DNA of 64,000 nt from the human T2T-CHM13v2.0 reference genome, Homo sapiens: NCBI RefSeq assembly GCF_009914755.1, contig NC_060941.1. The stretch is one strand, 5' to 3'. Each line of letters opens with the position of its first letter. Position 1 is the stretch's first letter. The translations under genes and the position numbers were made by a program. The notes under the pieces were generated by a model. The model was not told where the DNA came from. It ran no database searches and saw only the letters and a list, made by a program, of their open reading frames with translations. Positions 2,485-55,626 of this stretch are shown one piece after another.

Positions 2485-2937
2485 TCCTCCTGTCCCTCCT
2501 CCCGGCAGCTCCTCCTCCTCCTCGTCCTCCTCCTCGTCCTCCTCCACCCCCTCTCCCTCCACCTCCTCCTCTCCCTCCTCCTTTTCCCCCCGTACCCCTC
2601 CGCCCCCCGGGGCCCTGCCCTGCGGGTCTCACCTGCCGCTCGGCGGGGTCCCGGCGGGGGCCGGACAGCGCCACCTGGCGGCAGGTGGACGCCCGCGCAG
2701 CGCATGCTAATGAGCCCGCGTCGTCGCTCGCGGATTGGCTGGCGCGGATTCCAGCTGCTTTCCAAGTTGGAGGCGCCTAGTGAGGGTCAGGGAGGCCCGG
2801 CCCGCGCCCTCCCCGCCCAGCCGCCTCCCCGTCGACCACCCAGGGCTGGGGCGAGCCAGGCTGCCTTTCGAACTTGGGGGCTTCTCCTCTTGTCTCCCAC
2901 TGGTGCTCTGGCCGTGAATCCATCCAGGCGCCAGGAG
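2485..2937 (+). promoter_or_regulatory. Duplicated RGS9-like CpG-island promoter and 5' UTR
   Basis: About 19 differences in ~330 nt versus 39186-39514; CpGs retained; same CTCF-like (2668-2681), NRF1-like (2700-2707), ATTGG (2734-2738) and GC-box motifs; (CCT)n tract upstream. Confidence 0.85.
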
Positions 2938-2994
2938 ATGACAATCCGATACCAAGGCCGGCAGTACAGGCTGAGGATGGCATTTCTCCAAAAG
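2938..2994 (+). CDS. Paralogous RGS9 first exon ([19 protein letters not shown]), candidate alternative exon 1
   Basis: 54/57 nt identical to exon 1; ATG with G at -3; intact phase-0 donor AAG|GTAACC. Usage is inferred, not shown. Confidence 0.65.
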
Positions 2995-3727
2995 GTAACC
3001 CTGGCCCCTTACCTGGGCCCTGGAGTGCCGGGGACCACATCTGGGAAGCGTCCGAGGACACGTGGGGCAGGAGTGGAGGGCACCCCTTTGGGTCGATTTG
3101 TGCAGCTCGATTTCATTAAGTGACTGGTGTGAGTTGTGATAAAGACAATTCCGTTTAGGTTTCCAAGCTGCGTCCTGGGCCTGGAGACTGAGACAGAGAT
3201 CCACGGACTGCAGTGCAGGCAGCCCACCCCAGCTCCGAGTCATATAAGGTAACCCAGACAACCACCTACGAATTTAAAGCTCCTATAAGTTGCCCTTTCT
3301 GCATCCGAAGTGTGATATTTGAAAGTTAAAAACGTTATCTTACATACATAGATCTTAAAACGTATCTTACACCACAACCTACTCACAGATGCAAAGGCAG
3401 TGGTCATGGTCTTCCATTGCTTGGGGTCCTGGGGCCGGGTTTGAGGCTGAATGTCAGGGTTTCCTTTGCCATAACCTCATTCTGCACCACGTGCTGTCAG
3501 CCAGGCAGCCAATGTGGACTTGGAGGCTGGCATCTGCTGGGCACTGCTCGAGGTACCAGGGACACAGTGATGAGCAAAACGAGCATGGCCCCTGCCCTCA
3601 AAGTCCCTTGAGGCTAAATGGCCCACCCAAGGGCAGCTTAACAGTGCCCAGCCTTGGGGGATGTGGGCTGATGGAGGACTGGGCCCACCACAAGGTACCT
3701 TAGGGTGCCCCCAGTCAAATATATCTA

Positions 3728-4038
<311 letters not shown>

Positions 4039-4596: not shown

Positions 4597-4943
<347 letters not shown>

Positions 4944-5543
4944 CAGGAGAAATATAAAATTAAGACTGTGGTGAGAGGGAGCTTCCGATTCTACTTGAAG
5001 AGTGGGGGTAGTCATCACTGAAGAGAGAGCCTTCAAGCTTGGAGGATCCTGAGGCTTCTGCTGGGCAGAGGAAGGAAGACCCCACCTGCAGAAGCAGCCC
5101 CTGCCGAAGTACAGGGATGTATGAGAGTCTGGTGTGTCTGAGGGCATGCTGATTGCTGTTCGCTGAGCATATAGTACAAGGGGAGTGTGAGGTGGGACAG
5201 GCAGGCAGGGATGGATAGGAAAGGTCTATGCCTTACAAAGGTGGTGCTATTTTTCCCCAAAGAGCAGGTGAGTGAAGTGGTCAGATTTAGGTTCAAATGA
5301 GGGCTCTAATGTAAGCCAGAAGAATGGATGGGATATATTTCCTTCCCTGAGCCAAGAGAATTCACTCAGGGTCTTTCTGTGCTGTCTGCAACTCCAGTTA
5401 CCTAGGAAATGACAGCTTTTCATGGGGTCAGAGGGAGTGGTGCTGATCAGAAGGGCCCTTCTCCTGTGACTGTGGAGGCTTTCACACCTGTCATCACTCC
5501 TGTGATGTCCCAGGCTTGATGCAGCCCTGTGTAGGTATATCTA

Positions 5544-6080
<537 letters not shown>

Positions 6081-7219
6081 TCATTTCCTGTGTTCCGGCA
6101 GCCCTGACCACCTGGGGTGAGGTGGAAAAAATTTCCATCTGGACTTCTAAAATGCTTTCCTATTTGACTTAAGGAAAAGTTGAGGATGTGAGGGTGTTCT
6201 TGCAGCAGATGGGGTGCCAGGAAGAGAGTTGAGCTTAGACGAGGGCTACAAGAAGAAAGGATCTTAATGAGGCTTGGGCAGAATTTAGAATTGCTTGTAT
6301 CATTTGTTCACTCCTCCATGTGACAGACATTTATTGAGCACCTACTATGTGTCAGGTATTGTTAGACACTGTCATAACACAGACTTCAGGACACAGTCCC
6401 TGTTCTCAAGTGACTTGTAGTCTAGTGGTAGGAGATGGCCACATGTATCAACACAGTGGCATGGCACAGGTGCCATGCAGACAGCTGGAGGGTAAAGGAG
6501 GTGCTTAAGTGTGGGCCTTTACTTTATCCTGGGTGGAATGTCAAGAAAGCATTCTGAAAGATATGGTGGTGGTTTCTCTAGGTCTTGAGGATGTGAGGCT
6601 GTTCTTAGGGCAGATGGGGTGCCAGGAGGAGAGTTGGGACAAAGGTGGAAGAGGAACATGAACTTGGCTTGGATCTATTGTGTGTCAGCTGTTGGTCAGA
6701 GCCAGATGGTGATGTCCAGTAGGCAATTCTGTGTCTGGAGGCAGGGCCTGAAAAACCTGGGAGACACATTAAACTGGTCATTGAGAATGTAATAGAAATG
6801 AGGGATGTTTCTGAGGCTGGGTACAGTTAACAAGGCATATTAGACTTGGGCATTTGGACTGTGGCTGGCAGTGCTATAGTTGGGATGTGAGTTGCCAACT
6901 AAAAAAAAGAGCACAGTGGTTTGGGGTCACTATTTACATCTCTGCACAGCAAACTCATAATTATGATTGTCTTCCAGGAAGCTTGCTCTGGATTATAGGA
7001 AAATTCCAGTCCCTGAAATCTTGTAGAGAGTGACAGCCACTTACTATGAGAAGAAATCGTGACCATGGGGTGGATGGAATATTGAGACTATCACTTTCTG
7101 ATACTTTCAGTGACTGTCTGGGTACTTTAAAATGTTCAATGTCATACCTCACTTAGCTGGAATCTGAGAGGGGCAATGCTAGGCCTGTGATGGGGTCAGA
7201 GAGAGTCCAGTGATTTTGC

Positions 7220-7493
7220 TTTTCTTTTTTTTTTTCCCCGATGGAGTGAAGTGGTGCGATCTTGGCTCACTGCAACCTCCACCCCCGGCTTCAAGCGATT
7301 CTCCTGCCTTAGCCTCTGGAGTAGCTGGAATTACAGGTGCCTGCCACCATGCCTGGCTAATTTTTATATTATTAGTAGAGATGGGGTTTTGCCATGTTGG
7401 CCAGGCTGACCTCGAACGCCTGACCTCAGGTGATCCACCCGCTTTGGCCTCCCAAAGTGCTACGATTATAGATGTGAGCCACCGTGCCCAGCC
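7220..7493 (-). mobile_element. Alu (S-like)
   Basis: Antisense Alu consensus. Confidence 0.9.
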
Positions 7494-8352
7494 CAGTGAT
7501 GACCCTTTTATGTAGCATTTGTTTGAGGCCTCAGGAAATAGTTGTGGAGAAGTCAGGATTCTGGGAGAACTGGGCAGCTGTGCTCTGGTAAACAGTGGTG
7601 GGGTGGGGTGGGGAGGTGATGGTATGGGGAAGGACCGGGGGTCTTCAATGTGTCTCACGAAAGGAGATAGCTCAGAAGGGATGCACGCTGGACAGAAGAA
7701 GGGGTAGCCTGGAGAAAGGCCACAGCTGCACCCTTCCTGGGGAGCTTGAAAATCAAGGTGGGTTTTCTCCCGTCGTGAGTGGAGTACAGGCACCTGTCAC
7801 CTGCCACCTTGCCCACCAAGACCACCTCTCCAAGACCATTCCGGACCCAAGGAGTCAGTCATATTTTTCGTAATTGAGATTTATTACAATTTAAAAAGGA
7901 ATCCCTTAAGTGAGTTTACAGGGGAAAAGGTTGGAGGAAAATTATTCTGTCCCCTAATGGGAAGACCCCTAAAAATGTTCAAGACACAGACTCCCCTCTT
8001 CCCAGAAAATCCCTCCTTTGTGCAGAGACGTCATCGCTGGAAAGCCCCTCTTGATTGTGCTTTTAGAAATAACTCCTGTTAATCTCCTTTGAGGGGTAGT
8101 TGCAAATTCCTCAGAGATTGATTTTTTTTTTAAACACAAAGGGAAAGAAATGGAGTGACTGTCATTTTTATCAGAGAAGTTTAAATGTCTAACTGGCAAA
8201 GTAGGTACAACTCCGCCATCCACCGTTAGCTCCCTCTGCCTCACTACTAAGGAGATGGTTATTTTACCCGATGAAGTACCGTATTTATAATCTGAAAAGT
8301 TATGACTGAAAGGACGAGGATGCTTTAAGCCCTGTCATCAGAAACTGCATAA

Positions 8353-8354
<2 letters not shown>

Positions 8355-8397
<43 letters not shown>
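8355..8397. repeat. (GT)n microsatellite, ~21 units
   Basis: Perfect dinucleotide run. Confidence 0.97.
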
Positions 8398-8400
<3 letters not shown>

Positions 8401-8430
8401 GGGAGGACGGGGCTGTTGGCTGCTGCTGAA

Positions 8431-9013
8431 AAGAATCACTCCAGCAGCCATGGCTCCTCAGTCCCCTGGCCATCCCAGGAAGAGCAGGACCACCTCTCAG
8501 CATCCCCCAGTACAGTGTGGGGTTGTGTCTTTGCTCCCCTCTCTGCTGTTGGCCTCATGGCTGACCCAGTGGCCAGAAACACTGCCAAGTCCTGACACTG
8601 CAGAAAGCCAAGGATTGTGGCTCCAAATCAAGCTGAAATGAATAGCTTTTGTTCCAAAACAATTCTGTGAGCCAAGAAAGTGTCCATGCAGATAAAGCTT
8701 GCAGTCAGTCTTGCACAAGGAGCCCCAGCCGTGTTTTGCACGCTGTCTGAGTGACTGGCGCTGTGCCCGGAATGCTGAGTGGTGAGGCTATCCTCAGAGC
8801 CTTCCCTGTGCACCTGATCTTGGCCCATTTCTTGAGATTGTGGTTCAGCTGCAAATGCTTGTTTAGCAACAGAGATTGAAATAGGAAATTCCTTTCCTTA
8901 GTGTTGGCATAAGACATTGTTCCATACTCTCCCTCCTTGGGAAGATTGGAGCCTCCTAGCTTCAGGAGCAGGCTGCCTGAGAGGGAGGGGGCAATTAGGA
9001 TTTTTCTGATTCA
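8431..9013. promoter_or_regulatory. Duplicated copy of the candidate intron-1 enhancer
   Basis: Shares CTGCCAAGTCCTGACACTGCAGA, TGTTCCAAAACAATTCTGTGAGCC and GTGGTTCAGCTGCAAATGCT with 49163-49414. Confidence 0.5.
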
Positions 9014-9122
9014 GCTCTCTTCGGATATATCCAGGTTAGTCTACACCTCCTTCCTGTCTACCTAGCCATATCATGGGTTCCTTCCCAAGTTCACTTCCTC
9101 TAGGAAGCATTCATTGACCATC

Positions 9123-9811
<689 letters not shown>

Positions 9812-10749: not shown

Positions 10750-11264
10750 TTATGATTAATGGCAGAAAAATAGATACTGCAAGATTGAAACAGTTCAATG
10801 AAGACAGAGCAGTATGGATGGATGGCTCTGGATTTGGTTGATAGGAGCCAAAGAGTTGATTGCATTTGAGGGGCCCTCCAGGTGCAGATGTGTAGCAGGC
10901 AGCGGGAAATAACTCTGAGGAGGGCGGCAAGGGCAGAGTAAATGGGTGAGGAATGACCTTCATTCTTACTGTAGGTCTCCTGTATACCCTGATATTTCCT
11001 GTCTCCATTCCTTTGCTTCTGTTGTACCTTCATCCTGGGATGCCTCTCCTCACCCCAGAGCTTGAGGCTGTTATTTCCAGTTGTCTGCTACACATTTCTG
11101 TGTATATGTTCCAGAGCACGGCACAAACAAGTTTTTCTCTTTCAAAACAGGCTGCTTTCTTTTGTGTTTCCTGTTTTAAATACTGACTACCACCATTGGC
11201 TTGGCAGAGAGGTAGGAAATCTTGGAATCATATTCTCTTGCCTTCACCAAATTGTATACATTAT

Positions 11265-11690
11265 CAACTAAGTTTCAAACACACAAACTTTTGGGAGACA
11301 CATTCAAACCACAGGACCATCCTATGATTGCTGTCCCTTTTGAGCTCCTGTGCAATTAGGATTGCAGTGTCTAAGTACAAGAGACTCATCTATAGTGCTT
11401 CTAGTGACCATATTCTCTTACTTTTCCTCATTGCCTCTGCCTGAACTGTGCTCTCTCCTGCATGATTATTTCCTCTGATACAGAAAGGTTTACTCCTCCT
11501 TTTTCTCTACTTGGCCATACCATGGGTTCCCTTCCAAGTTCACTTCCTCTAGGAAGTATTTCTTGATTATTTGTCTTAGTCCATTTTCTGTTGCTCTAAC
11601 AGAATACCCGAGACTGGGCAATTTACAAAGAAAAGAAGCTTATTTGGCTCACGATTATGGAGGCTGGGAAGTCCAAGGGCATGGCTACAA
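11265..11690 (+). repeat. Permuted copies of both junctions of the LTR at 9123-9811
   Basis: 11265-11362 resembles 9759-9857; 11490-11690 resembles 9041-9240; each includes non-LTR flank. Confidence 0.8.
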
Positions 11691-11929
11691 CTGCATACCC
11701 TCCTTTTTGCATCTATAATTTTGCACATCTAAAACCATCTATAATTTTGCAAAACAAGGCAAACTCTGCTGCTTCTCCATGAGAGCTTCCATTTGTCTAT
11801 GAATGACATTGAAGACCTATTGTGTCCTGGATTTATTTGCTCTCCCTTGGCATGCCATGCAGTTTTACCCATTCATGCCTTTGCACGTGCTTGTTCCTCA
11901 GCCTGGAATGCTCCTTTTCTCTGGGGCAG

Positions 11930-12257
11930 AAGCAACAACTTCTTGCCAAATAGCCCATGTTCTCTGAGTTAGAATTACTGGGCTGTGAGCAGAAGTGTTG
12001 TGTGGGTTTTCAGGCTGAAGTCTTGAAGGGTGAGTACCAATTCTCCATGTTTTTCTCTCTTCCCCTGCACAGTGATGGAGCACATGTAATGGAATGAGAA
12101 ACCATAAATGGTAGCAGCCTAGAGAGTTGAGTCAAGACATCAAGGGAGGGCCCTGGACACTGCCCAACTTGACTTAGCATTTTCTTAAGAGAGATAAACC
12201 CTTGTTGGGTTAAATCTGTGTTACCACAGCATAATCTAAATTATCCTGAGTAATACA
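11930..12257 (+). mobile_element. Old MLT1-family LTR fragment
   Basis: 3' end GAGATAAACCCTTGTTGGGTTAA...TCCTGAGTAATACA. Confidence 0.55.
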
Positions 12258-12674
12258 TTCTCATTTTCTGCCAGTTACAAATCTTTAAGTATCAGCTTAA
12301 ATCCTCTTTCTTTAAAAGCCTTCCAGAACCAACCCACCCCTAGCCAGAATTGATGTCTTTTCTTTGTGCTTTCACAGCCTGTGTAACTTATGTCTATTTG
12401 ACACTTAATGCATAGTATTATGGTTGGTCATGTAGAGTTAGTGACAGAATGAGTAAGAGTATGAATTCCAAAGCCAGACTGACTGGTTCACATATCAGCT
12501 CTGTCATTTACCAGCAGTGGGAATTTCGATGAGTTACTTAGACTTCCAGAACTTGGGTTCATATTTGTCCCTCCAGAACCTACCAGAGTGTCCGACATAG
12601 TAATTATATTACATATGTCAATAATTATGTTAAATAATACCTGTTTACCGGCCTCCTTCTTTTTTGTCTTGCAG

Positions 12675-12770
12675 GTTGAAATATCAGTAAAAAACATGCA
12701 GAACCAAAGATGGGGACCAAAATCCAAAGCCAGAGGGTCCTGGAAATCAGAGGGTCTTACAACATAACAG
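12675..12770 (+). pseudogene. Degenerate copy of RGS9 exon 2
   Basis: Acceptor tgtcttgcag intact; ~64/97 nt identical including ACATGCAGAACC and CCAGAGGGTCCTGG; 1-nt deletion after MQN; donor changed GT to GC; TAA at 12765-12767 in the spliced frame. Confidence 0.9.
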
Positions 12771-13137
12771 GCAGTACAGGCCATGGCTCAGGCTAGGCGT
12801 GGAACAGACTGCAGTTCTCTTCTACAAATCAATCTAGACTGGACAGACAGAACTCCAAGGGAGGAAAGAAAAATGAATCTGATGTTACTTCTTGAAACCA
12901 CATTTTCTGAAGTCACCATTTTTATGTATCTATCAACTCATCATTTTTATGTATATATCAATATGATTTTATGATCTTATTTTTTCCTACTAATGTGATG
13001 AATTACCTTGATTGATTTTAGAATATTAAATCACTTTTGTATTCCTGGAATAAACCCTAGATGGATGCTTGATTTTTTCTAATTCCTTAGCAAAAATGCT
13101 AATATTTTATTTAGGATTTTGCATCTATATTCACAAG

Positions 13138-14285
<1,148 letters not shown>

Positions 14286-39119: not shown

Positions 39120-39514
39120 GGTCCTCCTCCTCCTCCCACCAGGTCCTCCTCCTCCTCCCGCCAGGTCCTCCTCCTCCTTCTCCTCCCGGGGCCCTGCCCT
39201 GCGGGTCTCACCTGCTGCTCCGCGGGGTCCCGGCGGGGGCCGGATAGCGCCCCCTGGCGGCAGGTGGGCGCCCGCGCAGCGCATGCTAATGAGCCCGCGG
39301 CGCCGCTCGCGGATTGGCTGGCGCGGATTCCAGCTGCTTTCCAAGTCAGCGGCGCCTAGTGAGAGTCAGGGGGGCCCGGCCCGCGCCCTCCCCGCCCAGC
39401 CGCCTCCCCGTCGACGCCCAGGGCTGGGGCGAGCCAGGCTGCCTTTCGAACTTGGGGGGCTTCTCCTCTTGTCTCCCACTGGTGCTCTGGCTGTGAATCC
39501 ATCCAGGGGCCAGG
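39120..39514 (+). promoter_or_regulatory. RGS9: RGS9 CpG-island promoter and 5' UTR
   Basis: CpG-rich; (CCT)n tract 39121-39186; CTCF-like GCGCCCCCTGGCGG 39247-39260; NRF1-like GCGCATGC 39279-39286; reverse CCAAT (ATTGG) 39313-39317; GC box CCCCGCCC. Confidence 0.85.
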
Positions 39515-39571
39515 ATGACAATCCGACACCAAGGCCAGCAGTACAGGCCGAGGATGGCATTTCTCCAAAAG
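39515..39571 (+). CDS. RGS9: RGS9 coding exon 1 (MTIRHQGQQYRPRMAFLQK)
   Basis: ATG at 39515 with A at -3; 19 codons; phase-0 donor AAG|GTAACC; peptide recognised as the RGS9 N-terminus; lies in a CpG island. Confidence 0.97.
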
Positions 39572-40894
39572 GTAACCCTGGCCCCTCACCTGGACCCTGG
39601 GAGGAGGGCGGGGGACCGCATCTGCGAAGCGTCCGAGGACAAGAGGGGCAGGAGTGGAGGGCACCCCTTTGGGTCGATTTGTGCTGCTCGATTTTATTAA
39701 GTGACTTCTTTGCTGTGTGTGTCGATATTGATGGCTATAATAATTAGGTTTTCGTGTGCCCTGCCTGTAGTGGAGAATCTGAAGCCAGCGCTGATGGTCT
39801 GCGGGAGGTGAAAACAACCTGTTACTCGGGAGAGGCAGGTTCAGTTCAGGCTGTGGCAGATTTGAGACAGCCTGCTGATATTGTTGTAAGACGACCAGAT
39901 GTGACATTGCCATTTTTGCCTTTTTTTTCTGATCCCAAACTGCACTATTTTAAAGTGTGTGTGTGTGTACACATAGACCATGAAAACGGGGTGATTTGTA
40001 GGATAAAGGGCCACCCCATTTACAATGCCCTGAGAGCCCTCATTTGAGTGTGTCTATCTGTGCATCTCCTGCTGTCTGCGCTGGCGGCAGAAGTCCCAAC
40101 CTTTTCGCTTCCCTTGCGAATGCTTTCCCAGACAAAGTGACCGGGCACAGGGTGTGCACACAGGATGGACATGTGGGAGGTGGAATGCACCTGTGGGGTG
40201 ATGTGTTTGGGGACAAAGTGGTTCATTTAGTTCTGAGCTTCTGGTATAATCACTGTCCGATGAGATCTACAGAGGATTAGGTCCCGGGTCACATCTTTGT
40301 CCTTCCTCCCACCCGTAGCCACTTTTCACAGCGTAGTGTCCATCTTCTTAGGCTTATCTTGTTGAGTAGAATTAGTTGAATGTTTTGTGACAAGCTGAGC
40401 TCTCCCTGAGCCCCTGGAGCTCAGCAAATTTGTATAGTCAGTGACCGCTGTCCTGATTTGCCCAGGACTTTCAATGCTAAAACCTGGACAGTCCTGGGGA
40501 CCCCGAGACGGTCGCATTTGGTCCACCTGTTTCAAGATGCTCGTGCTCATCTTCCGGGTAGCAGAGGTGTGGGTATCATCTGTAAAGCAGACAGGCTGAA
40601 TGTTGTCTCACTCAGAAAGAACCCTGAGAGCCTGTATTGCAGATACCAGTTACTAAAAGCAGAAGAAACTGCCTAAGTCGGCTATCTCAAAGCCACACAT
40701 CATCTTCCAGGATTTATCCTAGGACTGTCTCCTCCCAGGCAGGACAGCTCTGGCTTGGGGGCTCAGAGGGTAATTGTCAAGAGATAAATTCAGTTTGTTT
40801 ATTGAATCTCTGGCATTCTTTTCCATCATGACTCTTCTCTGGTAGATTCTCCTCTCCTTACCTTGGTCTTCTGACTAGTGTCTTGGTCTCTAGT

Positions 40895-41330
40895 TTCTCT
40901 CCTCCACCCCAGGCTTCCCTCCTCCTCCCCAGCCACCCCTCCTTCACCCCGGCATCCCCTCCTACATCCTAGCCTCCCCTCCTCCACCCCAGCATCCCCT
41001 CCTCCACCCAAACTCTCCCTCCTCCACCTTAGTCTCCCTTCCTCCACCCTGACCTCTCCCTCCTCCATTCCAGCTCCCCTCCTCCACCCTAACCTCTCCC
41101 TCTTCCATTCCAGCTCCCCTCCTCCACCCCAGCTCTCCCCCATCCACCCCACCTTTCCCTCCTCCACCCCAGGTCCTCTTCCTCCACCCTGTCTTCCCCT
41201 TCCTCTACCCCATCCTCCTCCTCCTCCCCAGCCTTCTCCTCCTCCATCCTAACTTACCTCTCCTCTACCCTAACCTCCCCCTCCTGCATCCCAGCTCCCC
41301 CTCTTCCACCCCAGTCTCCCCTCCTCCATG
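40895..41330. repeat. Degenerate C-rich minisatellite, ~20-23 bp unit with CCCTCCTCCACCCC core
   Basis: Many imperfect tandem units; strong pyrimidine bias on + strand. Confidence 0.85.
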
Positions 41331-42568
41331 ACAGCTTTCCTACACACACTGTTTTTTTCCCCCAAATCAATGGTGACCTCCTTGACCTGAAACGCTCCAC
41401 TGGCTTCCCACATTCCCAGCATAAAGTCCAACCTTCCCCTGAGCAGCCTGGTTACCCAGGATTCCGCTCCCACCATCTTCCTGGCTTTGCCTCCTGCCTG
41501 CCTTACACACCTGCCCTCTGGGAAACAACAAAGCAGCCACAGGCACCCCTGGGCTCCTGCCTCAAACACTTCCTTCCTTTTTAGGAACCCGGTGCCCTTT
41601 CATGCCTCAGGGTCCGTCTGCTGGGAAAGTCCTTTCTCCCCCTCTCGCTTGCCAAGCTCCACTTCTCTTCCCATGCCCAGCTCAGTCACCCCTCGGCTGT
41701 GAAGGCTGGTTCTCCTAATGCCCCTGGGCAGGACAGCTCCCTTCTCTGTGCACTACAGACCTTGCCACACCTCCAGCATTGCTCTTTCCCTAGACCTTGT
41801 GCTGGCAAGGGCCCTGTCTATGTATCCTCTATATCTATGTATGTATTGGTCATGTCACAGAGCTCCTTGGAGCAGCAGACAGAATAAAGGTCTGCAGAAC
41901 AGGTCTCAAGAGCCCATGCCAGGCGATCCTTAATGAAGAACCAGCTACATTCGATGTTCAGCTTTCTGGAGAAGGGCCTGGAACAAAAAAATGTGGACCT
42001 GGGTGCAACTGTCACTCATCACTCGTTCCATGCATGTGATGAAGTACACTGTGTCCGTGATGGTGTGGAGGGGTGGGCATTATGTGCATTATCTCATCTA
42101 TTTCATTAGCTGGAGGTTATGGCCACCATTTTACAGAGAAGAAAGCTGAGGCTCAGAGAGGCTAAGCGGCTTGCCAGTCACGCAGCACTAGGTGGTGAAA
42201 CCAAGAAGAAATACAGGAGTGGTCGTTGTCTGTCACAAGTTGTGGTGCAATGCCCTGAGCTTTCCCATGACGTAGGGCAGAGTGTGGAGGCTGTGGGAAA
42301 GCCTGGCTCAGTGTGCTTAGGGACACAGAGCTGAGACCTGAAGGATACATAGGGTTTCCAGGCAGAAAGGGAAAGATGTTTCAGGCAGAGGGAACAGTTT
42401 ACGCACAGAGGCATGGGAAAGCTAGTGGGTTTGGGGCCATGTTCTGTAATGGATGGATTTTGAAGTGCAAGGGGAGTGGGAAGCTGGAAAGGAAAGGCAG
42501 AGGTAGTGGGTGCCTATGGGCCTTCAAGACCTTTTAAAGGTTTGGTTTTATCTCATACGGAGCCACTA

Positions 42569-42991
<423 letters not shown>

Positions 42992-44009
42992 TCACTCAGG
43001 ATCCTCCTGTGCCCCTGCAGCTCCAACCTCTTGAGAAATGACAACTGTCATGGGGCCATGGAGAGCCATACTGGTCAGAAAGGACCGTGTGCGATTCCCG
43101 AGGTTCTCACACCCATGCCTCCATCTCAGTCTCAATGCAGCTGTGGGTCGGGATGCCCGCCGGCCATGCTGCTTCCCACCTCTGATGCCTGGGCTCGTTT
43201 CAGATGTGGTAGAAAGAGGCAGAAGGCCCATCTGTTCATGGCTTTGCTGGGGAATTAGCTGATGGCACACAGTGGACAGATGAACACAGGTGGGTGGCCT
43301 CCTGTGGTTCCAGCACCCATGGACTCTTGTTCTGGGGATGGCCCATTCCCCTCTGCAATTACCAGATCACCATCCCAGCCAGTACCACCACCGCCCTTGG
43401 GATTCACCATGGGCGAATTTCTTGGACTTTCTTGGAGAAGCCTTCTGGTGACAGCTTTGTTTTCCTGTGCGGCTTCTGGCATCTCTTTTTGCCTGAGAAA
43501 GGAATGCAGAAGCAGAAATATTGAGGATATCCAGGCCGAGTTTGGTATCTCTTGCTTGTAACATTCTTTCATTCAATACAGACATATAATTGGGTACTTA
43601 TGGGCTAGATGCTGTGCCAGGTGCTGGGAGCACCAAGGAGCTTAGAGTCTAGTGGAGAAAGACAGATGTATAAACAAGGAGACAAGAAGTGTTCCATAGG
43701 CTGTGGCAGACATTGTTGGAGGATACATGTGACACCAAGCAGGGAGTGGTCAGTTCTACCTGGGGTCAGGGGGGATCAGGACAGATTTTACAAGGGGGCT
43801 TGCAATGGAGTCGAATTATAAAAAGTCAGTAGTTTTTGGCCAGGAGGTTGAGGAAATGAGTGACATTTTAGGCAATACAAAACAGGGACATGTGAAGTAG
43901 CATGGTGGTTTGGGAGATTGCCTGCGGGTTGGGAGAGCTGGCCCCAAGTGTACAGGAAGTGAGTTTGGCGTTGATGGAGAAGACTGGTAGGTAAGAAAGG
44001 CCCAGATCT

Positions 44010-45090
<1,081 letters not shown>

Positions 45091-45154
45091 TAACCATTGC
45101 TCTTTTTGAAAAGTTTTCCAGGTGGTTTGAATGTGCAGTCAGGATGAGAGCCTC

Positions 45155-45342
45155 TGGGGACATTTGGCAATGTCTAAATACATTTTAGGTTGTCATAACT
45201 GGGGGTGCTCCTGGCATCTAGTGGGTGGAGGACATGAATGCTGCTAAACATCCTACAACACACAGGACAGCCGCCCTCACCAACCCCCAAAGAATGATCC
45301 AGCTCCAAGCGTTGATGGGGCCACTGTTGAGAGCCCTGGGCT
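45155..45342. mobile_element. MER20-like DNA transposon
   Basis: GGGACATTTGGCAATGTCT...GGCATCTAGTGGGTGGAG...GCTGCTAAACATCCTACAA. Confidence 0.75.
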
Positions 45343-45477
45343 AAGGAGCACCCCGGAGGCTGGAGACAGATGCCAGCTCAAAGGCAGAACCTGATAGTCC
45401 AGGAAGGGGGTTAGAAGATGTTCCACGGAGGCAGGATTGAGTGGGCAGAGAAGAGATGTGTTGAAAACAAAAGCAGT

Positions 45478-45986
<509 letters not shown>

Positions 45987-46844
45987 GGAAACAAAAGCAG
46001 ATTCAACAAAAGTTGGCCACATCTTGGCTGGGGTCACCTGGAACGATTCCCAGGCTTTTGAATCGGTGGGAAGAGCAGATTTTGGAGAAAGACTACCGAG
46101 CACTGGTTAGGGCATGGTGCCTCATGAGTGTCTGAGCGTCTGCGAGACATCGGGTGAGACAGCGGGAGGGTGGCTGGACTCTGTGTGGCCAGGCTTATTA
46201 GCAGGAGTACATCCTCCTCTGTTAGAAAAACAACTCTGCGGTTCTGGGTCACTTTTCCCATCTTTGTATAGAAAAGTACCGATTATTATTGTTCCCCCGG
46301 GTGCCTTCTCCAGCTTAAAGGAAAATTCCAGCCCCAGAGATCTTCCGCAGTGAGTGACAGCTCCTTAATGTGAGGAGCAGCGTGGGCGTGGTGGGTGGGA
46401 TGTCAGAGCCATCAAAGCCCTCATTTCTGATCCCTCTGTGATGTCGGGGTTCCCTGGCACGCCCACTGTCATGCCTCAGCACATTGGCATCTGAGAGAGG
46501 AAAGGTGCAGCTGACACCCTGACCCCCTTCTCCCCGACACGGGGTCAGACAGGGTCCCGCGGTGGCCTGGTTGTGCAGCACTGACATGTTGCCTGGGAAC
46601 GAAGTGGGGCTGATGCTTTGTCTTGGGAGGAGCTGGGAAGCAGAGTCTGTTTGGGAGTGAGAGTGTTGGCCTTTGAGGGTGAGCATGCCCCCAAGGACAC
46701 AAGGAGGAGAGTGCAAGGTCTGCTGAAGTTTGCAGCAGAATAGCAAGGGCATCTCACTCCCTGGAGAACTTGGGAAACAGTTCAGATTCTCTCCCCTCTG
46801 TGCAGGGGAAGGGATGTTTCTGATTGAATATAGGACACAGAGTC

Positions 46845-47838
<994 letters not shown>

Positions 47839-48343
47839 GCTAGAGTTCTGTGGTTTCCTGGGGAGACTGAGGAGACGCCTCAGAGGAATTTGTACGGGGA
47901 AAGGTCTGAGGAAAAAGGATTGGGATCCCAATGGGCCGAACTCCCTCAAAATGTTCCCGAGGTCCACGTGACGTTCCCTCCTCCCACCCAGCCCTTCTTT
48001 CTGTGAAGGGTGACACACCTCCTAGAAAGAAATCTGACTCCCCTCATTGTGTTTTTAAAATAACTCTCATTATTCCTCCTCTGAAGGTTATTTTCAAACT
48101 CTTTATAACTCTATTTTTTTTTAAATGCAAAGACAAGGAATCAAATCTGCCAACTTTCTATCGGAGAAACTCGGGTTTCTAACTTTTAAAGTGGGATTAT
48201 ATGTCTTCTCCAATATATGGGCTCCCTGCTTTTATAACATGCTGCTGTTACATCTAATAAAAACCATTTTGAATGAAGGCAGCCTTTCATCCGGCAGCTA
48301 ATGTGGGAAAAAGGAGTCTTGGGCCCTCATATTAGAAAATCTT

Positions 48344-48942
<599 letters not shown>

Positions 48943-49004
48943 GAAAATCAGGCACTTCTTGGGTACCATGGAGACCTGAGGTCACAGTTAGTGGAGAACT
49001 CCAG

Positions 49005-49557
49005 AAGGAGTCACTCCTGCAGCCTGTTGCCTCCTCAGTTCCCTGGGCCACCCCCAGGAGCAGCAGCTGTACCTCCCAGTGCCCCGCAAACACCCTCCTG
49101 GCGTTGTCCCTTTGCTTCCCTCATTGCTGCTGGACCTACAGCTGACCCAGTGACCTCAGATGCTGCCAAGTCCTGACACTGCAGATGGCCAAGGACTATG
49201 GCTCTGAGTCAAACCAAAATAAGTATTTTCTGTTCCAAAACAATTCTGTGAGCCGAGAATGTGTCCGTGCAGAGGAAGCTGACAGTCAGTCTTGCACCAG
49301 GAGTCCCTGGAGCTGCCTGGGTCTGCACGCTGGCTGGCTGTGTGCTCAGAGTGGCCTCAGCTGTGTACCTGCCCTTGGCCCATTTCTTGAAATCGTGGTT
49401 CAGCTGCAAATGCTGGTTTAGCAATAAAGATTGAAATAGGGAATCTCACCCCTCAGCATCAAGTTAGGTCATGGTCCCACGCTCCTTGGGAAGGTGGGAG
49501 CTTCCCAGCTTCAGGCTGCCTGAGTGACAGGTGGCAGGTAGCATTTTTCCACTTCAG
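49005..49557. promoter_or_regulatory. Candidate RGS9 intron-1 enhancer, paralogous to 8431-9013
   Basis: Non-repeat block with 20-24 nt perfect matches to the upstream copy, in otherwise weakly conserved intron. Confidence 0.5.
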
Positions 49558-49616
49558 GACTCCCTTGAATGACCCGTCACCTTGAATGCACCTGGATCAT
49601 TCTCTCTCTCTTTTAA

Positions 49617-49927
<311 letters not shown>

Positions 49928-49937
49928 TCTCTTTAAA

Positions 49938-50590
49938 AAATTTTTATTTTATTGTGGTGAGAACATCTCACACGAGATCTACCCTTTCAAAACTTTAAGT
50001 GCACAATACAATATTGTTGATGAGGTACAATGTTGTACAGCAGATGTCTAGAATGTATTCATCTCATTTAACTGAAAGTTCTTTATGTCTGTTGAGTAGC
50101 AACTCCCCAGTTTCCCTTCTCTCTAACCCCTGGCAACCACTATTCTGATATTTGATCTATGAATCTGTCTATTCTAGGTACTTCATGTAAGTGGAATCGT
50201 GTGGTATTTGTCCTTCTGTGACCGGCCTATTTCACTTAGCATAATTAGCCCTAGGTTCATCCATTTGCTTGCATATTGCAGAATTTCCTTCTTTTCGAAA
50301 GCCAAACAATGTTCTTTTGTATGCATAGAACACATTTTCTTTGTTCATCTGACAGTGGACACTTAGGTTATTTCCACATTTTGGCTAACGTGTATAGTGC
50401 TGCAGTGAACATGGGAGTGCAGGTATCTTTTCCAGAGCCTGATTTCAATTCTTTTGGGTACATACCCAGAAGTGGTATTGTTGGATGCTGTGGTAGTTCT
50501 ATTTTTAATTTTTCTGATGAACCTCCATACTGTTTTCCACAGCAGATGCACCATTTTATATTTCTACCAACAGTGCACAGGGTTCCAATT
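49938..50590 (-). mobile_element. L1MA-like 3' end
   Basis: AACTTTAAGTGCACAATACAATATTGTT; ATACCCAGAAGTGGTATTGTTGGAT. Confidence 0.85.
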
Positions 50591-50769
50591 TCAATCTCTT
50601 TCCATTTCTGAATTAAGAAACCTGAGTCCTTCTTATACCACCCCTCCCTTGGAGTGCGGCCTGGTCCTCACCATCTAGGGAGATTCTGTTGGCCCTCTCT
50701 GCACTTTTTTTGGGATCATCTCAGCCAGTCTGCAGTTGCTATTTTTTTTGTGGGTAGGTGTGGGGAGGA

Positions 50770-51308
<539 letters not shown>

Positions 51309-52340
51309 TGATACTATTGCAAGTTCTATTTTACAGATAAATGAGTCCTAGTGAAATTTAGCAATTTACCAAAAGCCTCTAGCTTCTAAATTGGAGCAGA
51401 GATGTGAAACTGAACTTTCTCTGCATTCAGACTCCTAGCTTTCATATTAGTTAACTTTTCATTTTCATGTAACTGTCTGCTCAACTTTCTGAAGACTGGG
51501 TGTATGTCTTTTACCTTGTATCCTTGCAGTGCAGGGTTCTTAATACATGCTCAATAAATACCTATACTTATTTGGTTTGTTGACCTGGGTTTCTATTCCT
51601 GGGCACCTAAACACAACCCTGCATGCAAAGTTTCAAAATGTATTAGTATGAATGCTACTAATATTAATAATTCTAACCATAATAGTGAACATATGTCTCT
51701 CCTGATAAAGCATATATCTTCATGCATACATAACATATATCTCTCCTTATAGAGCATTTTACATAATTAAATTCTAAGGGATTATAAAGTCACAAATTAA
51801 TTAAATTCTAAGAGATTATAGAATTCTTTAGTAGTCCACATCATGGTCCCCATTTTATGGAGAGAAAGGAGATTCAGAGAGGTTAAGTGAGTTGCCCAAG
51901 ATCCTACAGTTAATAGAGAAAGAAAGTCCCATGGAGACTGAGTGCTTTTTCTTTGGACTGCAAGCAAGCACCTTCAGATCATGAAAGGATTTTGTAAATT
52001 GTAATGAGCCAGACAGTGTTGGGAGATGTTGTTTAATTCAGTGCCAGAAGACTAATGATGGTGTAAGCAAGGTGGCTAAATGGAGGGGAAGCAGGTAAAT
52101 GGATGAGATGTTTTACTTTGGGTAATGGCGGGAATGTGGACAGACTTGGTGTGAGAGCAGCCATCCACGTTGATGTCCAGCTGCACGCAGCAGCCCAGAC
52201 CTCAGGAGAGAGCCCTGGGCCAGGTGAAGGCAGGAAAGGGCTTTGTTTCCCGCTGCTGGTTCATGTTCTGTGCTTCTGCTTCTGTGGCCCTTCCACCTAG
52301 AACACCCTCACCCATGCTCCTTTTCTCTTTCTGCTTCCTA

Positions 52341-53409
<1,069 letters not shown>

Positions 53410-54569
53410 TTATTTCCATTTGATTTTTTCAAGTGGGAAATAATTTTTAATAATAAAAATGAAAAAAACAACTCTAAAGATAGTCAGGGCTGTCCCTGTG
53501 GCTGCCTTCCTGCAGTGCAGGCTTCCTTGGACAGTTTGTTGATTCTCTTTAGCTTCAACTCTCCCTGACATTCATGGCTCTAATTCATATCTCTGACCCT
53601 GTCTCTTCTGAACCTGGGGCAGTCATTTCCAATCACCTCCCAGACATTGTGGGAATCTCAGAAGCCCCTTACAGTCGACCTTCCAAGGCAGACACCTTTG
53701 CTTCCAGAAGTGGCTTCTTCTTTGCATTTTCTAGTTTGGTAACTGGTAACTCTGGTCTTATAAGTTATAAACCTTGGCATTATTCTGTGTCACCCTTAGT
53801 GAACCTTTCAATCACTTGCAAATGCAGTTTATTTTCGCTCTTCCAGGGCTCTGAAAGTCATGCCTCCTTACCATCTTCCTGGCCACTGCCTCATTTATTT
53901 ATTAATTCACACATCACTTGCTTACTGGGTACTATCTATGTGGCAGGCATGCTTCCTGACACTTGACATCCAGCAGCAAACAACAACAGAAAAAGACCCC
54001 CAGGAAGAGCTTGCTTTCCAGGAGCTAGGGGAGATGCACCACCGACAATGTATTAACTAGGTCAATTATTTTGTATGTTTGAAGACCACACATGCTCTTG
54101 AGAAACGGAGCAGGGCGTCAGGAGTGCCAAGGGTGGAGTTCAGGGTTGCAGCTTTAGGAATGGTCAGGGTGGGCCTCCTGAGACCATCAGAAGGGGAAGA
54201 AGGTGAGGAGGGAGCCAAGTTGGTCTCTTGCGAAGACTGGCCCAGGTAGAGGGAAGAGCCAGAACATGGGACCCGCCCAAGGCTGGCTGGGAGTGTCCTT
54301 GGTATGGCTGGGGGAAGGAAGGTGGCCAGTGTGGCTGGATCAGAGGGAGCCGGTGGGGAGTGGGTAAGAAAGAAGTCAGAGAGGAAGGAGGTCCCGAACA
54401 TGTAGACCAGTAGGGGAACTTTATCATTTACTTGGAGTCAAGTGGTCCTTGCAGTGGAACAGCCACGCAGAAGAGTGACATATTCTAAAATAATGGAAAG
54501 CCCATCTGGCTGCTCTGCTGAGAATACAAAGAGTGGGAGTGTTAAGGGTTGAAACGCTGTCATTTCTTT

Positions 54570-54860
<291 letters not shown>

Positions 54861-55233
54861 GTCACTGTCGTTTCTCACCTGGGCTGTATGCAATAGCTTT
54901 GAATAGGTCACTGCACTTTTTTCTACCTCTGCAAACTTCTTCACACTTCAGTGTTCTTCTCTCTGTCATGGGCCAAATTTCCAGAACGCTCTCTAGGAAC
55001 AGTCACTGGAATAAAATCCACACTGCAGGGGTGGCTTTGAGGTCCATGTGGTCTGGCCTCCACTGGCTTTTCCAGCTGCAACTCCTGCTGTTTTCTGTTC
55101 CACTAACCCTGGGAGCTGTCATCCTTCCATGCCTTTGCCCATGGTGTTCTATCACTTTCTGTTCAGCAAAATCCTTTCTTGTTAAGCTCCATCTTTCCTT
55201 AAAAGCCACCCCAGAATCTCCCAGTCAGGATGA

Positions 55234-55626
<393 letters not shown>

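What the first reader, a model, noticed from the sequence alone, without database searches (positions are those of the whole stretch)
12665..13054. Decayed exon-2 copy keeps its acceptor and may act as a terminal decoy exon encoding a 49-aa microprotein
Seen: 12675-12770 aligns to exon 2 (~64/97 nt) with an intact TGTCTTGCAG acceptor, a 1-nt deletion, a GT-to-GC donor change, and ATTAAA (13025) and AATAAA (13049) downstream in L1-like sequence. Splicing 2994 to 12675 gives [49 protein letters not shown]-stop (TAA 12765-12767), a basic 49-aa peptide. The stop would lie in the last exon, so the transcript should escape NMD. The ORF track misses it because it is spliced. Inference: the near acceptor (12675) and far acceptor (55456) compete for the upstream donor, forming a switch between a short RNA/peptide and full-length RGS9.
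Basis: partly seen in the sequence, partly recalled or inferred. Interest (0 to 1): 0.85.

Follow-up and report, generated by a model that had tools for sequence, protein, structure and literature searches.

The report
Relic RGS9 exon ending a lncRNA
The flagged stretch is the already annotated last exon of the lncRNA LUESCC, built from a decayed copy of RGS9 exon 2 left by an old partial duplication of the gene's 5' end, and nothing found here shows that it encodes a peptide or controls RGS9.

Summary
The sequence observation is correct. 12675-12770 aligns to RGS9 exon 2 with 64 matches, 32 mismatches and 1 gap. The acceptor is intact, the donor is GT>GC, TAA lies at 12765-12767, and ATTAAA and AATAAA lie at 13025 and 13049.

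The stretch is the annotated 3' exon (12675-13054) of RefSeq lncRNA NR_110801.1, published as LUESCC (RP11-160O5.1). This lncRNA is an old partial duplicate of RGS9 covering promoter, exon 1, intron 1, exon 2 and about 40 nt of intron 2. Eight co-linear homology blocks show this. The exon-2 relic has diverged as much as the intron blocks (K2P 0.34 against 0.26-0.36), so it looks neutral. A 520-bp tract over the promoter and exon 1 is 94.6% identical with sharp edges, which suggests later gene conversion.

The 49-aa ORF exists only if the annotated middle exon (3159-3248) is skipped. In the annotated RNA the same ATG gives 29 codons. The LUESCC paper reports no coding potential.

The proposed switch with RGS9 has no RefSeq support: RGS9's own promoter lies 26 kb downstream of this exon. 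It is not excluded, because no transcript data or primate genomes were available. The finding is ordinary, apart from the RGS9 origin of LUESCC, which I did not find in print.

The parts
2606..3125 (+). High-identity tract shared with RGS9 39190-39706. It covers the CpG-island promoter, exon 1 and the first 131 nt of intron 1, and is probably a gene-conversion tract.
   Evidence: 489 matches, 28 mismatches and 8 gap columns, 94.6% identity. Promoter 95.6%, 5'UTR 95.3%, CDS 94.7%, intron part 92.4%. Identity falls sharply on both sides. Only two copies exist in the genome.
2764..2994 (+). Exon 1 of LOC100507002/LUESCC, a copy of RGS9 exon 1. The first ATG is at 2938. The 19 codons differ from RGS9 at 3 positions, and the donor is AAG|GTAACC as in RGS9.
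   Evidence: Annotation. Translation and donor. The annotated TSS 2764 and the RGS9 TSS 39344 are homologous within 1 nt.
3159..3248 (+). Annotated middle exon of NR_110801.1. It puts TGA (3189-3191) in frame with the ATG and has a weak acceptor.
   Evidence: ORF 175-264 of the 701-nt transcript, 29 aa, with the stop 57 nt before the last junction. 12 of 25 pyrimidines lie before the AG, against 21 of 25 at 12675.
5310..9014 (+). Co-linear relics of RGS9 intron 1: 5310-5616, 5983-6067, 6904-7053, 8045-8149 and 8430-9014, matching 42943-43213, 43249-43331, 46226-46377, 48040-48140 and 49005-49557.
   Evidence: 72-79% identity, K2P 0.256-0.356. Block 8430-9014 has just two copies in the genome, itself and RGS9 intron 1.
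12649..12674 (+). Relic 3' end of intron 1: polypyrimidine tract and acceptor AG (12673-12674).
   Evidence: Aligned with 55430-55455. The last 10 nt are identical, and 21 of 25 bases before the AG are pyrimidines.
12675..12770 (+). Decayed copy of RGS9 exon 2 with a 1-nt deletion. TAA is at 12765-12767 in the frame set by exon 1.
   Evidence: 64 matches, 32 mismatches, 1 gap. The best local block has K2P 0.343. z = 15.2 against shuffles.
12771..12810 (+). Relic start of RGS9 intron 2 with GC (12771-12772) in place of the GT donor. Homology to RGS9 ends here.
   Evidence: Alignment with flanks. No further homology to 55553-60328 other than Alu.
12940..13140 (+). Fragment of an old dispersed repeat (L1 by recall only) that carries both poly(A) hexamers.
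   Evidence: 213 candidate places genome-wide, 40 scored, 69-88% identity, matching query positions 170-370. It is not in the RefSeq list of masked stretches of 100 bases or more.
13025..13054 (+). ATTAAA (13025-13030), AATAAA (13049-13054) and the annotated 3' end of NR_110801.1 at 13054.
   Evidence: The end lies 24 nt after ATTAAA, and a U-rich stretch follows at 13070-13085.
39121..55597 (+). Parent segment in RGS9: promoter, exon 1 (39344-39571), intron 1, exon 2 (55456-55552) and the start of intron 2.
   Evidence: It is 16,477 bp with 4,896 masked, against 10,275 bp with 1,949 masked in the copy.

Best explanation
12675-13054 is the 3'-terminal exon of the polyadenylated lncRNA LOC100507002 (NR_110801.1, LUESCC, RP11-160O5.1). 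The lncRNA is what remains of an old partial duplication of the 5' end of RGS9, covering about 250 bp of promoter, exon 1, intron 1, exon 2 and about 40 nt of intron 2. The copy lies 36.6 kb upstream of the parent.

How it works (anatomy shown, mechanism inferred):
- The duplicated CpG-island promoter fires at the homologous start site.
- Exon 1 splices through its inherited donor, by way of a new 90-nt exon, to the inherited exon-2 acceptor at 12675.
- The relic has lost its GT donor and no exon-3 copy lies downstream, so the exon runs on.
- It is closed by cleavage at about 13054, after ATTAAA in a dispersed-repeat fragment.

The exon-2 part has decayed at the intronic, apparently neutral, rate. 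It is a scaffold for splicing and 3'-end formation, not a coding exon. The promoter and exon-1 block was later homogenised with RGS9, most likely by a gene-conversion tract of about 0.5 kb.

The RNA is non-coding or at most yields incidental short peptides. The only published function is as a miR-6785-5p sponge in oesophageal carcinoma cells.
For: Annotation:
- There is one BestRefSeq transcript with exons 2764-2994, 3159-3248 and 12675-13054.

Duplication:
- Eight co-linear +/+ blocks link 2536-12743 to 39121-55525. Seven have E <= 1e-5 and one is weak at E = 0.24.
- Block 8430-9014 and the exon-1 block each have exactly two copies in the genome.
- No copy of exons 3-6 lies upstream; the best E is 0.028 for an 18-nt match.

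Neutral decay:
- K2P of the exon-2 block is 0.343, against 0.256-0.356 for five intron blocks.
- 22 of 85 exon-block sites are mismatched against 271 of 1148 intron-block sites, p = 0.60. The whole exon has 32 of 96, p = 0.036, so if anything it is more diverged.
- The copy has a frameshift, a stop and a GC donor.

Conversion:
- 2606-3125 is 94.6% identical with abrupt edges, and its intronic part is 92.4%.
- The tract has 44 mismatches in 580 sites against 293 in 1233 for the other blocks, p = 2e-18.

3' end:
- The hexamers are at 13025 and 13049 and the transcript ends at 13054.

Literature (PMC10924007, passages seen):
- The RNA is 700 nt with 3 exons and is mainly cytoplasmic.
- Its sponge function was tested by reporter and knock-down assays.
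Against: - The first ATG of the RNA (2938) is the RGS9 start codon with G at -3 and A at +4, and the RNA is reported to be cytoplasmic. Some translation of a short ORF cannot be excluded.
- The middle exon has a poor acceptor (12 of 25 pyrimidines), so an exon-1-to-12675 isoform carrying the 49-aa ORF may well exist unannotated.
- Recalled, from no call: Ensembl/GeneCards give RGS9 an hg38 start of chr17:65,100,812. One search shows that this is the printed start of RP11-160O5.1. If my recall is right, GENCODE holds at least one transcript linking the upstream exon 1 to RGS9 exons.
- The intron blocks are the best-preserved pieces that BLAST could find, so 'same rate as intron' is measured against a biased sample.
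- Selection on both promoters, rather than gene conversion, could contribute to the 95% tract.
- No other species was compared.
Confidence: 0.85

Rival explanations
1. An isoform that joins 2994 directly to 12675 is translated from ATG 2938 into a basic 49-aa peptide. Its stop lies in the last exon, so the RNA escapes NMD.
For: - The ORF exists exactly as written in the exon-1 + last-exon join. It is the first ATG, in an adequate context.
- The middle exon's acceptor is weak, so skipping is plausible.
- The RNA is reported to be cytoplasmic.
- The NMD logic is sound (established 50-55-nt rule, recalled).
Against: - The junction is not in RefSeq. The annotated RNA gives a 29-codon ORF that stops 57 nt before the last junction.
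- The exon-2 part diverged like intron, and 19 of its 30 codons are read out of the RGS9 frame.
- All 3 differences in the 19 exon-1 codons change the amino acid.
- The paper reports no coding potential and no ribosome-profiling signal (supplement not seen).
Confidence: 0.07
2. Transcripts from the upstream promoter choose between the near acceptor and poly(A) site (12675-13054) and the far acceptor of RGS9 exon 2 (55456). The relic exon then acts as a premature terminal exon that gates an upstream-initiated RGS9 mRNA.
For: - Exon 1 of the copy ends in phase 0 with the same donor as RGS9 exon 1. A 2994>55456 join would therefore be in frame and would change only 3 of the first 19 residues.
- The two acceptors are about equally pyrimidine-rich, 21 and 20 of 25.
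- My unverified recall is that Ensembl's RGS9 gene model starts at the lncRNA's TSS. The coordinate itself is confirmed only for RP11-160O5.1.
Against: - All three RefSeq RGS9 mRNAs start at 39344, and none starts upstream.
- The polymerase would have to read through two poly(A) hexamers, 26 kb of intergenic DNA and RGS9's own promoter.
- No paper in the library holds RGS9 together with any name of the lncRNA.
- The relic shows no conservation above the intron level. The exact 10-nt run at its acceptor is unremarkable, because 16.7% of intron-block columns lie in exact runs of 10 or more.
Confidence: 0.07
3. The 95% tract over the promoter and exon 1 reflects purifying selection on two working promoters rather than gene conversion.
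For: - Both copies are CpG-rich, with G+C 0.68 and CpG observed/expected 0.63-0.66.
- Both drive annotated transcripts from homologous start sites.
- The copy's tract also holds the first exon of an antisense lncRNA (2633-2664).
Against: - Identity is nearly uniform across promoter, UTR, CDS and 131 nt of intron (95.6, 95.3, 94.7 and 92.4%).
- It drops abruptly at both edges to about 75% or to unalignable sequence. That is the pattern of a conversion tract rather than of scattered constrained motifs.
Confidence: 0.12
4. The resemblance of 12675-12770 to exon 2 is a chance match or a shared repeat.
For: The genome-wide DNA search with 12640-12800 returned only itself.
Against: - z = 15.2 against shuffles and E = 2e-14.
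- The match is co-linear with seven other blocks.
- The region is not masked as a repeat.
- The tool also missed another 72-75% partner that local BLAST finds, so its blank reflects limited sensitivity.
Confidence: 0.01

Closest known systems
Transcribed unprocessed (duplicated) pseudogene fragments and lncRNAs born from partial gene duplication
   Same: It keeps the parent's promoter, start site, exon-intron layout and splice sites. Its reading frame is disabled by a frameshift, a stop and a lost donor, its divergence looks neutral, and it is transcribed and polyadenylated.
   Different: Only exons 1-2 were copied. It is catalogued as a lncRNA, not as an RGS9 pseudogene. It gained a new internal exon (3159-3248) and a new 3' end. 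I found no paper that links it to RGS9.
Terminal exons closed by poly(A) signals that lie in transposable-element fragments
   Same: Both hexamers lie inside a dispersed-repeat fragment, and the annotated end follows ATTAAA by 24 nt.
   Different: The repeat family was not established with tools (0 of 7 Pfam tests). Actual use of the site rests on the RefSeq transcript end alone.
Interlocus gene conversion between tandem duplicates, as described for globin and opsin genes (recalled)
   Same: A short (about 0.5 kb) sharply bounded tract of much higher identity sits inside an older duplication. The two copies are 36.6 kb apart in the same orientation.
   Different: The tract covers a promoter and first exon of a non-coding copy. 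Its direction and date could not be tested without other species.
Poison exons, decoy exons and premature (intronic) polyadenylation exons that regulate a host gene (concepts recalled)
   Same: It has an exon-like unit with a good acceptor, no usable donor and a nearby poly(A) site. This is the anatomy of a composite terminal exon.
   Different: Those elements lie inside the regulated gene's pre-mRNA. This exon lies 26 kb upstream of the RefSeq RGS9 start, so membership depends on upstream-initiated RGS9 transcripts that I could not verify.
lncRNA-encoded micropeptides
   Same: A short ORF starts at the first ATG of a cytoplasmic lncRNA.
   Different: The ORF is absent from the annotated isoform, shows no sign of constraint, and has a published negative statement on ribosome profiling.

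Membership tests
Partial unprocessed duplicate (pseudogene fragment) of RGS9 | Paralogy with the parent that includes intron sequence in the same order and orientation | tested here: met
   Eight co-linear blocks. The intron block 8430-9014 has only itself and RGS9 intron 1 as copies in the genome.
Partial unprocessed duplicate (pseudogene fragment) of RGS9 | Disabling changes relative to the parent ORF | tested here: met
   A 1-nt deletion, an in-frame TAA at 12765-12767 and a GT>GC donor. Exons 3-6 are absent.
Partial unprocessed duplicate (pseudogene fragment) of RGS9 | Exon divergence no lower than that of neighbouring non-coding sequence | tested here: met
   K2P 0.343 against 0.256-0.356. 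Fisher p = 0.60 for the block and p = 0.036 for the whole exon, which is the more diverged.
Annotated lncRNA LOC100507002 / LUESCC | The stretch coincides with an exon of the catalogued transcript | tested here: met
   The last exon of NR_110801.1 is 12675-13054. The paper names NR_110801 and RP11-160O5.1, and hg38 chr17:65100812-65111058 is printed in PMC7441485.
Translated micropeptide (sORF) | The ORF is present in a documented transcript | tested here: not met
   The 49-aa ORF needs a 2994>12675 join, and RefSeq has only 2994>3159 and 3248>12675. Other catalogues were not available.
Translated micropeptide (sORF) | Ribosome footprints or peptide evidence | not testable with these tools
   The paper says ribosome profiling shows no coding potential. 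That figure is in a supplement I could not open.
Translated micropeptide (sORF) | ORF conserved across species with a coding-type substitution pattern | not testable with these tools
   No primate genomes were available. Within the human genome, comparison with the parent shows no constraint.
Regulatory premature terminal / decoy exon of RGS9 | Lies inside an RGS9 transcription unit | tested here: not met
   In RefSeq all three RGS9 mRNAs start at 39344. GENCODE could not be consulted, and my recall that its RGS9 model starts at the lncRNA's TSS is unverified.
Regulatory premature terminal / decoy exon of RGS9 | Junctions from the same donor to both acceptors, varying inversely | not testable with these tools
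Gene-conversion tract | A sharply bounded segment with significantly lower divergence than its flanks | tested here: met
   2606-3125 is 94.6% identical against 72-79% elsewhere, p = 2e-18, with abrupt edges.
Gene-conversion tract | Tracts group by species rather than by locus in a tree with outgroups | not testable with these tools
   No other mammalian genome was available.
L1-derived sequence (for 12940-13140) | Many dispersed copies in the genome | tested here: met
   213 candidates, 40 scored, on many chromosomes and both strands.
L1-derived sequence (for 12940-13140) | L1 protein domains in or next to the copies | tested here: inconclusive
   0 of 7 ORFs next to two other copies matched any Pfam family. 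The pieces between stops in the window copy are under 20 aa. The L1 label is recall only.

The most novel reading that the evidence does not exclude
The duplicated promoter and exon 1 form a second, differently regulated entry point into RGS9. Transcripts started there either end at the relic exon 2 (12675-13054), giving LUESCC and perhaps a 49-aa basic peptide that shares RGS9's first residues, or read on and splice 2994>55456. The second route would give an RGS9 protein with three changed N-terminal residues. The relic exon and its repeat-borne poly(A) site would then gate RGS9 output from the upstream promoter. Gene conversion would have kept exon 1 splice- and frame-compatible with RGS9.
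Probability: 0.06. Interest if true: 0.5.

Novelty: new member of a known kind. Interest (0 to 1): 0.2.

Why it matters
The practical value is annotation. A lncRNA studied as a cancer RNA (LUESCC) turns out to be a relic of the 5' end of RGS9. Its promoter and first exon are 95% identical to those of RGS9.

This matters in three ways:
- Primers, siRNAs, probes, CAGE and ChIP reads, and methylation probes aimed at either exon 1 or promoter region may cross-map.
- Anyone reading variants or regulatory elements upstream of RGS9, a gene for delayed cone adaptation (as listed in PMC7917623), should keep the two promoters apart.
- The locus is a tidy example of how a partial duplicate becomes a lncRNA: inherited promoter and acceptor, lost donor, borrowed poly(A) site.

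If the upstream promoter really fed RGS9, the locus would be a natural case of premature termination gating an alternative promoter. Nothing here shows that.

Tried and rejected
- Chance similarity was rejected.
- A shared dispersed repeat as the cause of the intron homology was rejected. Block 8430-9014 has only two copies genome-wide, the blocks lie outside the masked stretches, and 5300-5609 found only itself.
- A full tandem duplication including later exons was rejected. There is no copy of exons 3-6 in 1-38500, and no homology to intron 2 beyond about 40 nt apart from Alus.
- Special conservation of the acceptor was rejected. 16.7% of the 1244 intron-block columns lie in exact runs of 10 or more, with 14 such runs.
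- Shared Alus as a young-age marker were not supported.
  - The Alu at 5610-5944 splits an otherwise contiguous homology (5616/43213 to 5983/43249) and has no partner.
  - The Alu pairs at 7210-7499/47116-47487 and 9247-9561/49594-49960 sit at roughly co-linear places. They are 83-84% identical, like unrelated Alu pairs in the window, and their immediate flanks gave no hit.
- Known RNA families: 0 Rfam matches in 2400-13400.
- L1 identity by protein domains: 0 of 7 ORFs matched.
- Literature on an RGS9 link or an upstream RGS9 exon:
  - 'RGS9' with 'partial duplication' gave 1 paper, a volume of meeting abstracts seen only in the search listing.
  - 'RGS9' with 'alternative first exon' gave 3 papers. 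I read passages of two, and neither links the terms. The third (PMC4869301) I saw only in the listing.
  - 'RGS9' with any name of the lncRNA gave 4 papers holding two or more terms, 3 listed, all with 0 occurrences of RGS9.
- Supplementary figures of PMC10924007 (Fig. S2: transcript map, CPAT, ribosome profiling) are closed and may bear on the isoform and coding claims.
- Not done: comparison with other primates or mammals, since no such genomes are reachable; junction or 3'-end read counts; splice-site scoring with a trained model.
Full report
**Observation.** I read 12560-13160, RGS9 exon 2 with flanks, and both exon-1 regions.
- A global alignment of 12675-12770 with 55456-55552 gives 64 matches, 32 mismatches and one gap column, a 1-nt deletion in the copy.
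- The last 10 nt before the exon (TGTCTTGCAG) are identical in both.
- The former donor reads CAG|GCAGTA against CAG|GTGATG in RGS9.
- TAA is at 12765-12767. ATTAAA and AATAAA start at 13025 and 13049.
- The match is not chance. Exon 2 with 30-nt flanks finds 12649-12771 at E = 2e-14 in the upstream 38.5 kb. Its local score of 53 compares with mean 23.8, sd 1.9 and max 30 in 60 dinucleotide-preserving shuffles, z = 15.2.

**What the stretch belongs to.**
- RefSeq has one curated transcript here, NR_110801.1 (LOC100507002), with exons 2764-2994, 3159-3248 and 12675-13054. The flagged stretch is its last exon.
- The acceptor at 12675 and an end at 13054, 24 nt after ATTAAA, are therefore already catalogued.
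- The RNA is published as LUESCC (also RP11-160O5.1). PMC10924007 (passages seen) describes it as follows:
  - It is 700 nt long with 3 exons.
  - It is raised in oesophageal squamous carcinoma.
  - It is mainly cytoplasmic.
  - It was reported at 514 copies per cell in one cell line.
  - It is proposed to act as a miR-6785-5p sponge.
- PMC12230507 (passages) measures it in colorectal tumours.
- PMC7441485 (one passage) prints its hg38 place as chr17:65100812-65111058.

**Origin.** I compared the repeat-masked window, 1-38000 against 38001-64000, and obtained 54 HSPs at E <= 10. The eight co-linear +/+ blocks, with their partners in RGS9, are:

| Copy | RGS9 | Identity | E-value |
|---|---|---|---|
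| 2536-3125 | 39121-39706 | 89.9% over 596 | 0 |
| 5310-5458 | 42943-43086 | 72.5% | 2.7e-13 |
| 5555-5602 | 43152-43199 | 81% | 1.1e-5 |
| 5983-6067 | 43249-43331 | 71.6% | 0.24 (weak alone) |
| 6904-7053 | 46226-46377 | 71% | 7.8e-14 |
| 8045-8149 | 48040-48140 | 72.6% | 3.1e-6 |
| 8430-9014 | 49005-49557 | 72.1% over 591 | 2.5e-83 |
| 12659-12743 | 55440-55525 | 73.3% | 3.1e-6 |

- The other HSPs are CT-rich or TG low-complexity matches, or short weak hits.
- Genome-wide, the 8430-9014 block has exactly two copies, itself and RGS9 intron 1. The exon-1 block also has two, itself and RGS9 at 93%.
- Homology continues about 40 nt past the relic exon, to about 12810/55597, and then stops.
- Nothing but Alus links 12771-14000 to RGS9 intron 2, and exons 3-6 have no copy upstream; the best E is 0.028 for an 18-nt match.
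- So LOC100507002 is a partial duplicate of the RGS9 5' end, from about 250 bp before the start site to just past exon 2. The copy spans 10,275 bp and the parent 16,477 bp, the parent carrying more masked repeats.
- The two annotated start sites, 2764 and 39344, are homologous within 1 nt.

**Two ages in one duplicate.**
- K2P distances are 0.256-0.356 for five intron blocks and 0.343 for the exon-2 block.
- The exon-2 block is not better kept than intron: 22 of 85 sites are mismatched against 271 of 1148, p = 0.60. The whole exon is, if anything, worse at 32 of 96, p = 0.036. The intron blocks are the best-kept pieces BLAST could find, so this comparison is conservative.
- By contrast, 2606-3125 has 489 matches, 28 mismatches and 8 gap columns, 94.6% identity. 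The values are nearly even across promoter (95.6%), 5'UTR (95.3%), CDS (94.7%) and 131 nt of intron (92.4%).
- On both sides the alignment collapses within a few bases.
- The contrast with the rest is strong: 44 of 580 against 293 of 1233, p = 2e-18.
- An evenly similar, sharply bounded tract of about 0.5 kb inside an older duplication is the signature of interlocus gene conversion. I hold that as the likely cause (about 0.7). Selection on two working promoters is the main alternative.

**Dating (inference, with recalled rates of 1.0-2.2e-9 per site per year).**
- K of about 0.26-0.36 between copies means 0.13-0.18 per lineage, roughly 60-180 Myr. That is around or before the eutherian radiation.
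- This fits the Alu at 5610-5944, which interrupts an otherwise contiguous homology and has no partner.
- The tract has 28 mismatches in 517 sites. By hand, the Jukes-Cantor distance is about 0.056, suggesting a last homogenisation some 13-28 Myr ago.
- None of this could be checked against other species.

**How the terminal exon works.**
- Shown: the acceptor is strong, with 21 of 25 pyrimidines against 20 of 25 at RGS9 exon 2.
- Shown: the GT donor is gone and no exon-3 copy follows.
- Shown: two poly(A) hexamers lie 255-285 nt downstream, inside a fragment (12940-13140) of a dispersed repeat. That repeat has 213 candidate places, 40 scored, at 69-88% identity.
- Shown: the curated transcript ends 24 nt after the first hexamer, and a U-rich run follows.
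- Inferred: with no donor to pair across, the exon is defined by its acceptor and the poly(A) site, making a composite terminal exon.
- The repeat looks like an old L1 to me, from memory of L1 ORF2 C-terminal motifs. My one tool test, Pfam on 7 ORFs beside two other copies, gave 0 hits. The stretch is not in RefSeq's list of masked stretches of 100 bases or more.

**The peptide.**
- ATG 2938 is the first ATG of the RNA, with G at -3 and A at +4. It is the RGS9 start codon. The 19 codons up to 2994 differ from RGS9 at three positions, all changing the amino acid.
- In NR_110801.1 the frame runs into the middle exon and stops at TGA 3189-3191. The ORF is 29 codons, and the stop lies 57 nt before the last junction, which is borderline for NMD.
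- The 49-aa ORF appears only when 2994 is joined directly to 12675, a junction RefSeq lacks.
- It may still occur, since the middle exon's acceptor is poor, with 12 of 25 pyrimidines.
- Of the 30 codons from the relic, the first 11 align in frame with RGS9, 6 of them identical. The other 19 are read out of the RGS9 frame after the deletion.
- Nothing points to selection on this ORF, and the LUESCC paper reports no coding signal. I could not see that supplementary figure.
- I could not search protein databases for it.

**The switch.**
- The 'upstream donor' at 2994 belongs to the duplicate's exon 1, not to RGS9's.
- All three RefSeq RGS9 mRNAs start at 39344, which is 26,290 bp after this exon ends, and none starts upstream.
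- A 2994>55456 join would be in frame, so the idea is coherent.
- I also recall, from no call, that Ensembl/GeneCards give RGS9 an hg38 start of 65,100,812. One search shows that number to be the printed start of RP11-160O5.1. If my recall is right, GENCODE has at least one transcript running from the upstream exon 1 into RGS9.
- That would make rare read-through real. It would not by itself show a regulated switch.
- No paper in the searched library holds RGS9 together with LUESCC, LOC100507002 or RP11-160O5.1.

**Comparison, novelty and score.**
- The locus works like a transcribed partial duplicate, an unprocessed pseudogene fragment turned lncRNA, with a borrowed poly(A) site and a converted promoter tract. 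All of these are well-known kinds.
- It meets the tested defining features of such a fragment. For a micropeptide gene it fails the one defining feature tested here, an ORF present in a documented transcript. In RefSeq it likewise does not lie inside an RGS9 transcription unit, as an intragenic decoy or poison exon would. The other defining features of those two families could not be tested with these tools.
- The exon itself is already annotated and the RNA already published. What I did not find in print is its RGS9 ancestry and the 95% tract shared with the RGS9 promoter.
- That is useful for annotation and for avoiding cross-mapping, but it is not surprising. Interest 0.2.

**Limits.** No transcript reads, no Ribo-seq, no other mammalian genome, no GENCODE table and no supplements were available. 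Splice sites were compared only by eye and by pyrimidine counts. Rfam found nothing in 2400-13400.

Noticed in passing
window 2633-2664 (- strand) within 2606-3125: The first exon of the antisense lncRNA LOC105371864 lies inside the 95% tract, so the duplicated promoter is annotated as bidirectional. The homologous RGS9 position (about 39217-39248) has no annotated antisense RNA.
   Followed up: no
window 2764 and 39344: The annotated start sites of LOC100507002 and RGS9 fall on homologous bases within 1 nt. The two RNAs are nevertheless reported from very different tissues: carcinoma lines in the papers, and retina and striatum for RGS9 by recall.
   Followed up: partly
window 2531-2860 and 39034-39533: RefSeq lists a 'silent region' (silencer) element on each of the two homologous promoters. 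With 95% identity, the reads behind such calls might cross-map.
   Followed up: no
window 3246-3254, 2992-3000, 39569-39577: The donor of the new middle exon (AAG|GTAACC) is the same 9-mer as the exon-1 donors of both copies. The middle exon starts 34 nt after the high-identity tract ends. Its TTAG|GTTT acceptor motif aligns with the same 8-mer in RGS9 intron 1 in a poorly aligned region, which may be chance.
   Followed up: partly
window 2463-2605, 39100-39190, 41149-41285: CT-rich (CCT-type) low-complexity tracts lie just upstream of both promoters, with another inside RGS9 intron 1. They cross-match one another and mark the 5' limit of recognisable homology.
   Followed up: no
window 8354-8403 and 59942-59970: Dinucleotide microsatellites in the copy's intron and in RGS9 intron 2 match each other. 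They are not at co-linear places, so they are probably independent.
   Followed up: no
window 7210-7499 / 47116-47487 and 9247-9561 / 49594-49960: Two pairs of Alu-like repeats sit at roughly co-linear places in the copy and the parent. They are 83-84% identical, which is no more than unrelated Alu pairs in the window. I took them for independent insertions without testing insertion sites.
   Followed up: partly
window 12783-12974: The longest ORF of NR_110801.1 (63 aa) lies wholly in the last exon downstream of the relic, partly in the dispersed repeat. It is not the first ATG, and I saw no reason to think it is used.
   Followed up: no
window 18716-18901: Exon 1 of the Gnomon lncRNA LOC124907955 (18720-18779) lies inside a masked repeat. 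No similarity to RGS9 exons was seen there.
   Followed up: no
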